A stretch of DNA of 64,000 bases, taken from assembly GCA_951406725.2 (NCBI GenBank), contig OX597822.1, forward strand, positions 108,500,001-108,564,000, written 5' to 3'. A model generated the notes under the pieces. It ran no database searches, had not been told where the DNA came from, and saw nothing but the letters and a program-made list of their open reading frames with translations. The translations under genes and the position numbers were made by a program. This stretch comes from Octopus vulgaris. Its lineage: Eukaryota. Below are positions 4,800 to 61,953 of this stretch, one piece after another (position 1 is the stretch's first letter; the number at the start of each line of letters is the position of its first letter).

Positions 4800-5185
4800 T
4801 AAAAAATCCTACCTCAATCCTACAACTAGTTAAACACAACAATAGTTTGGTCAGTTAGTGGATAATATTCTTCAAATTTAATTCTAAATCTTTATCTGTA
4901 TATCTACTTTCTCTAAAATGTTACTACTTGATTTGCAAGATTTTGTATTATTGGAAAACCTATATTTTTGGCTGAAGAGCACTCAACATCTTAAATCTGC
5001 TGTAATAATTACAACTTTTAATAACATGTTGTAGTGCGAAACAATTGTACCAAATTACCGGAGTCATTCTTGTTGCTTATTTTTTTATTATAATCATCCC
5101 GCAAATTTTTATGGATAGCACCATACAAAATTCTGGTGCATCTAAATTAAGTACCATAATCATTTGAATCTAAATTGTTGCTGAA

Positions 5186-5186
<1 letters not shown>
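4800..5186 (+). mobile_element. Hammerhead mini-element family H1 flanked by (TA)n on both sides
   Basis: 3' part homologous to 49291-49640 and 61246-61902; contains a canonical hammerhead. Confidence 0.8.
4967..5054 (+). ncRNA. Type-I hammerhead ribozyme (canonical core)
   Basis: Helix I TTTGG/CCAAA; core CTGAAGA; helix II GCACT-CAACAT..ATGTTG-(T)-AGTGC; GAAA; palindromic helix III ACAATTGT; GUA cleavage triplet at 5047-5049. Confidence 0.85.
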
Positions 5187-5242
<56 letters not shown>

Positions 5243-11720: not shown

Positions 11721-12409
11721 TCCGAAGCAGTGGATATGCTACTATGTAGTCAGTTAATAGTAACGCATCTGATCTGGAACATGGAGCTTCATCTGAGTGA
11801 AAAAAAATACATAAAATAAAAGACAAGGCAAAGAGCCTCGAGAAGAGGAATGAAGGCTTAATATATTTAAATTATACCATGTTACAGAGTAACAATTCAA
11901 GATGTTGAGTTAATGTCTGAATTAAAAATATTAATTTGTGGTTTAATCGATCTTTAAGGGTACCAGGGAGTATAGATTATAAAAGCAAGCAAAGTATGTA
12001 CTTTACCATAACAAGATATGCCAGTAGATCTAGAAAAAGAGGGAGTGATAGTGCCATAACGTGTAGAAGTAATTTTAAAAGTTCTTACGTTTATGTTAAC
12101 AATACTAATTGATATTTATCCAAATAAAATACCTTTCCATTAATTACATTTATTTACTTACTGATATATTGTGAAGGCCAACCATTTATTGTCCGTAATG
12201 GGATTGACCAAAGTCCACATTTCAATGTAATAGGTCAGCTAAATATAAAGCGGAAGGGCAAGCTATTGTGACCGTTATACGGGTAAATGTAAATAAAAAG
12301 TAAATAAATATGTAAATAAAATGTAAAAGTATGGAGAATATGTGTTATGAGTGGCCCAAGGCCGCTTAAGACATCATGACTAAAACAACCAAACATGTAA
12401 ACAAGTACC

Positions 12410-12640
12410 TAGTTCTTTACTACCCTCAAGGGGCTAAATACTGAGAGGACAAACAAGGACAGACAAAAAGATTAAGTCGATTATATCGACCCCAGTGCGC
12501 AACTGGTACTTAATTTATTGACCTCGAAAGGATGAAAGGCAAAGTCGACCTCAGCGGAATTTGAACTCAGAACGTAACGGCTGACGAAATACCGCTAAAC
12601 ATTTCGCCCGGCTGCTAAATTTTCTGCCAGCTCACCGCCT
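12410..12640 (-). mobile_element. SINE family A with TSD
   Basis: Full copy; TAAACAAGTACC at 12398-12409 and 12645-12656. Confidence 0.9.
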
Positions 12641-13889: not shown

Positions 13890-14040
13890 AACTCTAGCTT
13901 TTTATTATTTGGGGAGGAAATTAAGCTCGATAAGTTATGCGTGAGACTATAACCTATTTTTATTACTTCACAATTAATAATTTCCGAATACTATTTGTTT
14001 ATATCTACCCGTATAACGTTCCTAATAGATTCCCCTTTGT
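13890..14040 (-). pseudogene. Possible PLE RT-to-endonuclease linker fragment
   Basis: YSEIINCEVIKIGYSLTHNLSSLISSPNNKKL resembles the PLE motif IFN.NT.K.SYS...N..SIIS.HN.K. Confidence 0.45.
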
Positions 14041-14650
14041 TTTTTGCTCAGTCACATTACGGACGGTAGGTAGTTGGTTTTTACAATATATCGGTAAGTA
14101 AATAAATGTAATTAATTCGTGGGTATTTTATTTGGATAAATATTAATTAGTAGTATTAACATAAAATCAAGAAGTGTCATGATTATTTCTAAATGTTATG
14201 GCACCATCAGTCCCTCTTTTTCTAGAACTATTGGCGTTTCCCGTTATGGTAAAGTATATATTTTACTGTTTTTTGTAAATTATACACTCTGTTACCCCTA
14301 AAGAAAGTTTAACCCACCACTTCACATTTCTAGTTTAGTCATTTACTCAATGTTCCGAAGCGTTACACTGCAAAATGGTATAATTTAAATATATTAAGCC
14401 TTCATTCCTCTTCTCGAAGCTCTTCCTCTTGTCTTTTCTTTTATTTTATGTATTTTTCTTCACTCAGATGAAGCTCCATGTTCCAGATCGGATATGTTAC
14501 AACATATAACGAATATTATTCTCAGAATTTTAATTGTCAAAATTGTAGGATGCTGGAATCAGAAACGGCCGTAAATAATAATCGATGGAAGTCAATTTTT
14601 GCTAATCAAGTTTTCTCCATTTTCTGCTCAATATATATATATATATATAT

Positions 14651-20175: not shown

Positions 20176-20200
20176 ATATATATATATATATTATATATAT

Positions 20201-20932
<732 letters not shown>

Positions 20933-38585: not shown

Positions 38586-38910
38586 GACAATATATTGGTA
38601 AAAACGGTAAGATAACAAAAGAAAGAAAGAGACCACAATATTATGTAAATAGAGAAATTTATCTGTAAAATTATATGTGATACTTATTCAGTAGCCAAGA
38701 TAAGACTCTTGGTTACGGATGCCGATGTGGAAATCCACACCACCATCTTTTCGGTTATCTGGCCATGTGTAAAACGCTATGAGAAAAAAAAGCGTTTTCC
38801 AGATGGCTAGATAACCGAAGAGATGGTGGTGTGGATTACCACCTCGGCATCCGAAACTAAGAGTTTTATATTGGCTCTGATAATTGTCACATATTATTTT
38901 ACAGATAAAT
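38586..38910 (-). mobile_element. Fold-back hammerhead element family H6 (palindrome 38657-38910)
   Basis: Arms of ~120 bp around an A-rich loop at 38779-38790. Plus arm: GATAA-CCGAAGA-GATG..CATC-C-GAAA-CTAAGA-GTT-TTAT (38810-38869); the other arm keeps GTC-TTATC. Confidence 0.8.
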
Positions 38911-38928
38911 AAACAATATATATATACA

Positions 38929-39160
38929 TAAATTAGAAAAGAAACCACACTATTATGTAATTCAAACAATGATAGACATAAACCAAATCATAAAAGAAAA
39001 AATAAAATATATTATAAAACATATAGCTAGATCACAAAAAGTACAAAAATTGAATAAACAATATATAATAAGTAAAAAGACTACGTATGTTTCGTGGATA
39101 TAACTTCAATTCGAATTAAAATTAAATTTAAATTTAATCGAAAAACAATTCGCCAGCGTG
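38929..39160 (-). mobile_element. Partial element related to family H5
   Basis: aaattagaaaagaaaccacactattatgtaattcaaacaatgatagac parallels 20207-20255; minus strand carries the half motif GAAACATACGTA. Confidence 0.55.
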
Positions 39161-42603: not shown

Positions 42604-43180
42604 CAGCTGTCAGAATTGTTAGCACGCTGGACGAAATGCTTTGCGGTATTTCGTCTGCTGCTACGTTCTGAGTTCAAATTCCACCAGGTGAACTTGGCCT
42701 TTCATCCTTTCGGGGTCGATTAAATAAGTACCAGATACGCAGTGGGGTCGATATAATCGACTTGTTCCGTTTGTCTGTCCTTCTTTGTCCTCTCTGTGTT
42801 TAGCCCCTTGTAGGTCATAAAGAAATAGGTATTTCCTCTGCCGCTACGTTCTGAGTTCAAATTCCGCAGAGCTCGAGTTTACTTTTCATTCTTTCGGGAT
42901 CGATTAAATAAGTACCAGTTACGCACTGGAGTCGATATAATCGACTTAATCCGTTTGTCTGTCCTTGTTTGTACTCTCTGTGTTTAGCCCCTTGAGGGTA
43001 GTAAAGAAATAATTATTTCGCCCTTCGTTACGTTCTGAATTCAAATTCCGTCGAGTTCGACTTTGCCCACCATCATTTCATGGTCGATAAATTAAGTACC
43101 AGTGAAACACTGGGGTCGATGAAATCGATTAGTCCCCTCCCCAATATAAAACTCCTTGTCCATATAGTAGAGAGGAATAT
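42604..43180 (+). mobile_element. Head-to-tail triplet of SINE family A
   Basis: Units restart at ~42828 (ggtatttcctctgccgctacg) and ~43014 (tatttcgcccttcgttacg). Confidence 0.85.
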
Positions 43181-45225: not shown

Positions 45226-45264
<39 letters not shown>

Positions 45265-45267
<3 letters not shown>

Positions 45268-45495
45268 TTCTTTATTGCCCACGAGGGGCTAAACACAGAG
45301 GGGACAAACAAGGACAGACAAAGGGATTAAATCGATTACATCGACCCCAGTGCGTAACTGGTACTTAATTTATCGACCCCGATAGGATGAAAGGCAAAGT
45401 CGACCTCGGCGGAATTTGAACTCAGAACGTAACGGCAGACGAAATACGGCTACGCATTTCGCCCGGCGTGGTAACTTTTCTGCCAGCTCGCCGCC
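45265..45495 (-). mobile_element. SINE family A
   Basis: Near-consensus full copy. Confidence 0.92.
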
Positions 45496-49264: not shown

Positions 49265-49290
49265 GTGTGTGTGTGTGTGTGTGTGTGTAC

Positions 49291-49637
49291 GTTCAGCAAA
49301 ATTTAGAATCAAATGAATATGGTACTTAAGTTAGATGCACCAGAATTTTGTTTGGTGTTATCCATATGAAACCATGGGGTGATTATAATTAAAATAAGCA
49401 ACAAGAATATCTTCGGTAATTTGGTACAATCGTTTCACGCTACATCATTTTTCATGTTAATTGGAACATGAAAATAAGTGTGAAAATAAGTATATGTATT
49501 GATGGAAAACCTCTATACATGGCTGATGATTGCTCAACATTTTAAAACTGTTGTAATACTTACAATGTTTAAAAAAATGATGTAGCGTGAAACGATCGTA
49601 CCAAATTAGCGAAAATATTTTTGTTGCTTATTTTGAT

Positions 49638-61247: not shown

Positions 61248-61388
61248 CAAAGCAATTAAGATTCAAGTAAATTCCAATGAATTCACTTTATGGTGTTATC
61301 TATATATGGTGTTATCTATATATGGTGTTATCCATACAGTAATGTGGGGTGATTATAAACGAGAAAGAAGCAACAAGAATGGATTAGT

Positions 61389-61479
61389 TTTTAGTACAAT
61401 TGTTTCATACAAAGACAGGCTTTATTACAAGTTGCACAAATTGCAGCAGATAAAAGTGTCCCGTACTCATCAGCTAAAA
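61389..61479 (-). ncRNA. Type-I hammerhead ribozyme (minus-strand mirror)
   Basis: Reverse complement of 61782-61872 with all core nucleotides intact. Confidence 0.83.
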
Positions 61480-61781
61480 TACATTTGAGTTCTCTAGACA
61501 TCTTAGTGGGTGAGGTTATACTCATGAAATATTGGAGATAGTTCCATTAGAGGCAGATATAGGTTGTAAACAGTTTTTCAAAGTTCCTTAATGATGATGC
61601 ACAGTCTTATCACAGATTTTTAAAAACTAATAAGTTTTTAAAAATCTGTGATAAGACTGTGCATCATCATTAAGGAACTTTGGAAAATTGTTTACAACCT
61701 ATATCTGCCTCTAATGGAACTATCTCCAATATTTCATGAGTATAACCTCACCCACTAAGATGTCTAGAGAACTCAAATGTA

Positions 61782-61872
61782 TTTTAGCTGATGAGTACGG
61801 GACAATTTTATCTGCTGCAATTTTTGCAACTTGTAATAAAGCCTGTCTTTGTATGAAACAATTGTACTAAAA
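61782..61872 (+). ncRNA. Type-I hammerhead ribozyme
   Basis: TTTTAG-CTGATGA-GTACGGGACA..TGTCTTTGTAT-GAAA-CAATTG-TA-CTAAAA; GUA at 61864-61866. Confidence 0.85.
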
Positions 61873-61900
61873 ACTAATCCATTCTTGTTGCTTCTTTCTC

Positions 61901-61953
<53 letters not shown>

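What the first reader, a model, noticed from the sequence alone, without database searches (positions are those of the whole stretch)
4967..5054. Compensatory covariation supports a selected ribozyme fold in family H1
Seen across three diverged copies (4967, 49520, 61782): helix III ACAATTGT vs ACGATCGT (double change that keeps it palindromic); helix I TTTGG/CCAAA vs TTTTAG/CTAAAA; helix II base GCACT/AGTGC vs GTAC/GTAT; core CUGAAGA vs CUGAUGA varies only at the tolerant position 7; GAAA and GUA invariant. Helix II is unusually long, enclosing a ~35-50-nt insert. This is what selection on RNA catalysis looks like, not chance motif matches.
Basis: seen in the sequence. Interest (0 to 1): 0.7.

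Follow-up and report, generated by a model that had tools for sequence, protein, structure and literature searches.

The report
Long-armed hammerhead of Hydra-clade retrotransposon
This is the broken-off tail of an abundant Penelope-like jumping gene, carrying a hammerhead RNA motif of a known kind whose fold was kept by selection in the parent elements and which likely cuts itself only as a pair; the unusual part is a folded side arm several times longer than in described relatives, and cutting is untested.

Summary
The motif is real: a type I hammerhead at 4967-5054 with the stated helices and core. It lies at the 3' end of a 5'-truncated, (TA)n-flanked copy of a Hydra-clade Penelope-like retrotransposon. 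Full copies elsewhere read pLTR - 980-aa RT/GIY-YIG ORF - pLTR, with this ribozyme in both repeats. At least 6,658 copies exist (control 0). The three window copies are three separate subfamilies. Across 89 copies found without using the core, changes shared by lineages keep pairing (29:12), private changes mostly break it (36:55, p=0.001), and the core is fixed between lineages but decays at the background rate within them. So selection acted on source elements; this copy is a fossil. No single pair is significant in an R-scape-like test, and the helix III swap coincides with CpG sites. The 'insert' is a conserved folded extension of helix II. The palindromic helix III predicts dimer-only cleavage. 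Hammerheads in Hydra-clade pLTRs are published; the 59-nt arm exceeds the published Hydra examples (loops 3-10 nt). This scan already noted long-armed Hydra hammerheads on other DNA. Extra lead: copy 5' ends pile up just 3' of the cut site.

The parts
4828..5187 (+). Copy A: 5'-truncated 3' end of a Hydra-clade Penelope-like element (long-tail end), between (TA)n runs; may start near 4800
   Evidence: BLAST to longer copy L004 from 4828; L004 carries the endonuclease C-terminus upstream; ends read
4967..5054 (+). Type I hammerhead, copy A; predicted cut after A5049
4972..4978 (+). Core C3-A9 (CUGAAGA)
   Evidence: fixed on lineage branches
4979..5037 (+). 59-nt helix II: 5 bp (4979-83/5033-37), bulged U5032, 6 bp (4984-89/5026-31), irregular middle, terminal hairpin TGTAA/TTACA (5001-5013)
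   Evidence: pair probabilities 0.9-1.0 for the two basal stems; lineage changes keep pairing
5038..5049 (+). GAA, palindromic helix III octamer ACAATTGT (5041-5048) and H17
   Evidence: monomer pairing probability 0.08-0.09; 8-bp duplex between two copies
5050..5187 (+). Sequence 3' of the cut; holds the two fixed element ends, about +36 and +137
   Evidence: end distribution of 156 copies
49287..49451 (-). Copy B, inverted arm: tail plus 3' half of the hammerhead (no CUGAUGA)
49495..49637 (+). Copy B, forward arm with hammerhead 49520-49603 (3-bp helix I, U.U at 10.1-11.1), short end
61321..61628 (-). Copy C, inverted arm with intact hammerhead (C3 61473, H17 61395)
61633..61902 (+). Copy C, forward arm with hammerhead 61782-61872; young subfamily (98-99% identical copies)

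Best explanation
The stretch is a type I hammerhead motif in the 3' pseudo-LTR of a Hydra-clade Penelope-like retrotransposon, left here as a neutrally decaying 5'-truncated copy; its core and helices were kept by selection in the source elements, where it likely cleaves the element's RNA only as a dimer and probably with help from the element's protein. Shown: element identity and layout, copy number, conservation pattern, folded long helix II by comparison. Predicted: helix III forms as an 8-bp duplex between the two hammerheads of a pLTR-ORF-pLTR (or tandem) transcript, 4,650 nt apart in L263. Inferred: cutting would trim the element out of host or tandem read-through RNA, leaving a 5' end about 210 nt before the ORF's ATG; reverse transcription starts at about +36 or +137/+155 from the cut, and most copies run through an intact site, so most templates are uncut or re-ligated. 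The long arm is likely an enlarged but pairing-constrained helix II with no separate catalytic role.
For: Full copy L263: 373-bp direct repeats each with the hammerhead, 984-codon frame, unit 4,650 nt, then (TA)n. Hydra marks RWK, DKT, CxCx5C, no CCHH, CxxC/CxH (against PMC8557442 section 11). Subfamily A, B and C copies all lead upstream into the same endonuclease end; Pfam GIY-YIG above cut-off for L093. Fixed 3' ends, ragged 5' ends, inverted 5' arms. Tree tests on 89 core-free-anchored copies: lineage changes keep pairing 29:12 against 36:55 private, p=0.0013, all 21 pairs; core unchanged in 10 of 11 columns against 24 of 88, p=7e-5; 90% of cells paired against 58% in 500 simulations, none reaching it. 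12 of 24 pairs with double changes, 89.7% paired against 32-48% slid. Swapped dimer of A is the co-folding minimum, -41.6 against 2 x -15.2 kcal/mol. Published: PLE hammerheads work weakly as dimers (PMC4209133); an Anolis PLE hammerhead cuts only with protein and is not needed for insertion in vitro (PMC11167929).
Against: No cleavage or expression data. No single pair passes the R-scape-like test; helix I and helix III taken alone are not significant in the tree test (p 0.32, 0.29). The classic G10.1-C11.1 pair is present in only 8 of 89 copies (U.U 43, G.U 26, A-U 11). For window copies B and C the swapped dimer is not the co-folding minimum. 7 of 12 near-full-length copies extend upstream through the 5' cut site and none starts at it. 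Clade placement rests on motifs, not a tree. No intact ORF was looked for in subfamily A itself.
Confidence: 0.8

Rival explanations
1. The fold is selected as a protein-binding or template-positioning structure for retrotransposition, and cleavage is marginal or absent in vivo.
For: Most copies pass through an intact site; weak 10.1-11.1 pair in most lineages; core mutants do not change insertion in vitro in the Anolis element; Naiads spread without canonical hammerheads.
Against: All 11 catalytic core positions are fixed across lineages while the tolerant position 7 varies among U, A, G, C; a binding site need not keep that exact pattern.
Confidence: 0.12
2. The long helix II makes the ribozyme active as a monomer, by supplying tertiary contacts that replace a stable helix III.
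For: Copy A can adopt the monomer fold at only 0.6 kcal/mol above its minimum; the arm's terminal hairpin keeps pairing through U-A, U.G and C-G forms.
Against: Helix III probability 0.02-0.09 in monomers; the octamer stays self-complementary in 69 of 89 copies as one of three forms; arms of other families share no sequence.
Confidence: 0.05
3. The covariation is only shared descent plus CpG decay in a repeat family, with no selection on structure.
For: Non-paired columns covary as strongly as paired ones; ACGATCGT to ACAATTGT is two CpG transitions and the mirror product ATGATCAT also occurs.
Against: Lineage versus private contrast, slid controls and simulations all reject it; the same core recurs in unrelated families with unalignable arms.
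Confidence: 0.03

Closest known systems
Hammerheads of Hydra-clade PLEs, including Hydra-1_Obim of Octopus bimaculoides (Craig et al. 2021, PMC8557442; read: section 11, passages, supplement parts 2-3 and search hits)
   Same: Type I topology near the 3' end, palindromic helix III, frequent U.U or extra base at 10.1-11.1, 3-7 bp helix I, (TA)n targets, ORF motifs RWK, DKT, CxCx5C, no CCHH.
   Different: Listed Hydra loops 2 are 3-10 nt; here 59-60 nt lie between the core halves and fold. Unit 4.65 kb against 'generally <3 kb', with Asn-rich ORF inserts and a 1.5-kb 3' UTR. Hydra-1_Obim (2,507 bp) has another ORF start and another hammerhead, compared by eye.
Minimal and short-helix-III PLE hammerheads (Cervera and De la Pena 2014, PMC4209133; read parts 1-2 of 4)
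   Same: In pLTRs, many solitary truncated copies and close opposite-strand pairs, consensus families full of compensatory changes, palindromic 15.2-16.2, predicted dimers.
   Different: Helix II 6-8 bp and G10.1-C11.1 highly conserved there; here a long irregular arm and mostly U.U or G.U.
PLE-X1_sMoe and PLE-X1_sTam hammerheads (File S2 of PMC8557442)
   Same: PLE hammerheads with long loop 2 (35 and 29 nt), so a long arm has precedent.
   Different: Plant, endonuclease-less Chlamys-type elements; flagged there as deviating; no covariation shown.
Poseidon PAc hammerhead of Anolis (Frangieh et al. 2024, PMC11167929; read parts 1-2 of 4)
   Same: Two reverse-transcription start sites downstream of the cut giving a 'tail'; uncut RNA as main template.
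   Different: Tail 30-40 bp there, about 100-120 bp here; different clade; ORF starts inside the ribozyme there, about 210 nt after the cut here.

Membership tests
Type I hammerhead ribozyme | Core C3 U4 G5 A6 N7 G8 A9, G12 A13 A14, A15.1-U16.1, H17 | tested here: met
   All present in A, B, C; 68 of 89 core-free-anchored copies fully intact
Type I hammerhead ribozyme | Three helices, open end in helix I | tested here: met
   Helices I and II form and are kept; helix III only as 2 bp or between molecules
Type I hammerhead ribozyme | Purine-pyrimidine pair, usually G-C, at 10.1-11.1 | tested here: inconclusive
   G-C in A and 8 of 89; U.U 43, G.U 26, A-U 11; U.U also in published Hydra rows
Type I hammerhead ribozyme | Per-pair significant covariation | tested here: inconclusive
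   No pair significant in own R-scape-like test, low power; whole-structure tests positive
Type I hammerhead ribozyme | Self-cleavage after H17 | not testable with these tools
   needs an assay
Rfam hammerhead families | Score against covariance models | tested here: not met
   No hit at E<=10 over 4900-5190; the long arm likely defeats the models
Penelope-like element (EN+) | Single ORF with RT and C-terminal GIY-YIG | tested here: met
   976-1,091-codon frames in L262-L264, L267; GIY-YIG above Pfam cut-off, RVT_1 E 2.7e-4 below cut-off
Penelope-like element (EN+) | pLTRs from partial tandems, inverted 5'-truncated arms, tail | tested here: met
   L263 direct 373-bp repeats; inverted arms in L262, L264, L267 and window B, C; two 3' ends
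Hydra clade | RWK, DKT, CxCx5C linker, no CCHH, CxxC and CxH around E/N | tested here: met
   RRIRWK, PADKT, CKCRIKSKC, one Cys between VIY and YIG, CQLC, CVH in L263
Hydra clade | Insertion in (TA)n | tested here: met
Hydra clade | Generally shorter than 3 kb (descriptive) | tested here: not met
   unit 4,650 nt
Hydra clade | Placement in an RT tree with reference PLEs | not tested
   reference proteins were seen only cut short in a supplement
Non-LTR retrozyme | Short non-coding tandem repeats, no ORF | tested here: not met
   copies are truncations of a coding element

The most novel reading that the evidence does not exclude
The long helix II is a selected module of these Hydra-clade ribozymes (a docking site for the element's RT-endonuclease that gates dimer cleavage), and the roughly five-fold pile-up of copy 5' ends at +1 to +20 from the cut is a genomic record of cleavage in vivo, which has not been shown for an animal PLE hammerhead in the papers I read.
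Probability: 0.2. Interest if true: 0.6.

Novelty: new variant of a known kind. Interest (0 to 1): 0.3.

Why it matters
The association of hammerheads with Penelope-like elements is known, but what the ribozyme does for them is open. This family offers about ten lineages with natural compensatory variants, young copies with intact ORFs and both ribozymes, and a long arm that Rfam and short-spacer descriptors miss, so PLE hammerheads are likely under-counted. The contrast between lineage and private changes is a clean way to tell selected repeats from fossils. The 5'-end pile-up near the cut makes the cleavage question testable.

Tried and rejected
Rfam, whole window and local: only spurious miRNA hits on microsatellites and palindromes. 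Single-strand folding z-scores: not significant. R-scape-like G-test with tree null: no significant pair. The 15-pair subset (24:6 against 23:46) was picked after seeing the data, so the 21-pair result is the one to quote. One search used a structure string shifted by one column; corrected. misread minus-strand loci as oriented; corrected. The descriptor scan was faulty and is not used. Sequencing runs: no RNA holder listed on record; contigs only, which cannot show ends or strand. Lunse et al. (PMC5785218) is not held; known only through the review PMC6765202 passages. No ORF remnant of the element in the window (tblastn). Neptune, Nematis and Naiad rejected by motif (C-terminal EN, no CCHH). 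Sharp start at +1: not seen among 12 near-full-length copies, 70 tail-anchored copies read by eye, and 1 of 67. Literature searches for this family or a long-armed Hydra hammerhead found no description; supplements of PMC4209133 and PMC11167929 and most of that of PMC8557442 were not read and may bear on arm length.

Full report
Observation. Copy A is a type I hammerhead: helix I 4967-71/5050-54, CUGAAGA 4972-78, helix II 4979-5037, GAA 5038-40, ACAATTGT 5041-48, predicted cut after A5049. A core pattern with a 55-68-nt spacer has 7,479 matches in the 2.8-Gb genome against 1 for the control; a pattern using only the inner hairpin and a downstream motif has 6,658 against 0. The host is likely an octopus (inference from genome size and microsatellites; earlier scan notes say the same).

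What it belongs to. Each window copy has its own subfamily: best hits 92-96% for A, 95-97% for B, 98-99% for C, with 1,600-2,200 candidates each. Copies share fixed 3' ends and have ragged 5' ends. Longer copies of all three lead upstream into a GIY-YIG endonuclease end (Pfam). A search with the RT found many frames of 900-1,090 codons. L263 is complete: 373-bp direct repeats, each with the hammerhead, a 984-codon frame, a 1.5-kb 3' UTR, unit 4,650 nt, then (TA)n. The ORF has RWK, DKT, CxCx5C, no CCHH, and CxxC/CxH, the marks given for the Hydra clade (PMC8557442 section 11). Intact frames were seen for C-like subfamilies; none was sought for A. In 156 copies the first (TA)4 after the cut lies at +35-38 (65 of 89 short copies) or +135-139 and +151-157 (24 and 16 of 67 long ones), like the two start sites of PLE reverse transcription (PMC11167929) but with a longer tail.

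Is the fold selected? I recovered 99 distinct copies of the first 100 core-free matches, dropped 9 truncated inside the ribozyme and 1 with a deletion, leaving 89. On a tree, branches leading to four or more copies stand for source lineages, terminal branches mostly for decay after insertion. With all 21 non-anchor pairs, lineage changes keep pairing 29:12 and terminal changes 36:55 (p=0.0013); by helix, IIa p=0.009, IIb p=0.013, I p=0.32, III p=0.29. The core is unchanged on lineage branches in 10 of 11 columns against 24 of 88 others (p=7e-5), while on terminal branches it takes 22 changes in 11 columns against 44 in 24 otherwise invariant columns; 21 of 89 copies have a core change. For 15 well-paired positions chosen after inspection, 90% of cells pair against 58% in 500 simulations. 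On 23 representatives that I chose, 89.7% of cells pair, 12 of 24 pairs show double changes, and slid controls give 32-48%. Against this, an R-scape-like per-pair test finds nothing significant (best proposed pair I.4, rank 8 of 4,666), since few lineages make unpaired columns covary as well. The helix III swap is weak evidence alone: the octamer is ACAATTGT 30, ACGATCGT 21, ACGATTGT 18 of 89, the swap equals two CpG transitions, and CpG sites change at 0.046 against 0.020. So selection on core and fold is supported for the source elements; copy A is a fossil that happens to keep an intact core.

The 'insert'. It is an extension of helix II: 5 bp, a bulged U, 5-6 bp, an irregular middle and a 5-bp terminal hairpin that varies U-A, U.G, C-G (the hairpin was the search anchor for the 89-copy set, so it was left out of the tree tests). 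Other repeat families here have 51-68-nt arms of unrelated sequence that also fold; one of them (L265) is a related PLE at about 69% RT identity. Published Hydra hammerheads have loops of 3-10 nt and often the same U.U at 10.1-11.1; two plant PLEs have 29-35-nt loops (File S2).

How it likely works. In one molecule helix III forms with probability 0.02-0.09; two copies give an 8-bp duplex, and for A the swapped dimer is the co-folding minimum (-41.6 against 2 x -15.2 kcal/mol), though not for window copies B and C. This matches the dimer mechanism described for animal PLE hammerheads, which cut weakly in vitro (PMC4209133; review passages). A pLTR-ORF-pLTR transcript holds two same-strand copies; cutting would free the unit and leave about 210 nt before the ATG. 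These steps are inferred. Most inserted copies span an intact site and 7 of 12 near-full-length copies run upstream through the 5' site, so templates are mostly uncut or re-ligated, as in the Anolis element where the ribozyme needs the protein and is dispensable for insertion in vitro. In palindromic insertions such as C, read-through RNA would pair the two arms and hide both ribozymes (inference).

A lead on cutting in vivo. Prompted by earlier notes on HERO elements, I mapped 5' ends of copies anchored only in the tail. Of 67 distinct copies (from the first 73 listed matches), 15 start at +1 to +20 from the cut against 3.4 expected (P=3e-6) and none at 0 to -19. Limits: the interval was chosen, three loci are shared, starts are BLAST ends, only one is exactly +1, local palindromes favour fold-back, and four inverted arms (L300, L305, L376, L383) cross the cut by 3-7 nt. 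Cleavage, stalling at the folded ribozyme, and collision with the second primer at +36 all remain possible.

Verdict. A real, selected, known kind of ribozyme in a known clade of retrotransposon, in a family I did not find described, with an unusually long folded helix II. This scan has noted long-armed Hydra hammerheads on other DNA, seen after my reading was formed. New variant of a known kind; interest 0.3.

Noticed in passing
window 20183-20605 and 38905-39014: A second, unrelated fold-back repeat (197-bp arms, 97%) with a short-armed hammerhead on the minus strand (helix I CCAC/GTGG, same ACGATCGT octamer); the plus-strand arm has a damaged core. A partial relative lies at 38905-39014.
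   Followed up: partly
window 61628-61633: The centre of palindrome C falls on a small natural hairpin of the element (AAACT-AATA-AGTTT, also in L091 near 5205), which suggests fold-back priming at that site.
   Followed up: no
L263:2077-4947; L264: The ORF carries long Asn-rich low-complexity inserts after the RT thumb and before the Zn-finger linker, absent from database relatives; they vary in length between subfamilies.
   Followed up: no
L265:5737-5822, L116, L134, L096, L102: At least four or five other repeat families with hammerhead cores and folded 51-68-nt helix II arms of unrelated sequence.
   Followed up: partly
G000: Over a dozen frames of 900-1,090 codons and 98-99% identical 3' ends point to recent activity of the C-like subfamilies.
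   Followed up: partly
window 11800-12234 / 14021-14455; 12403-12593 / 42828-43018 / 45260-45447; 38739-38830: Other inverted or dispersed repeats and a hairpin repeat, not examined.
   Followed up: no
window 61640-61900: The C subfamily and its variants are held by runs of five coded organisms, so the family is shared among relatives.
   Followed up: partly
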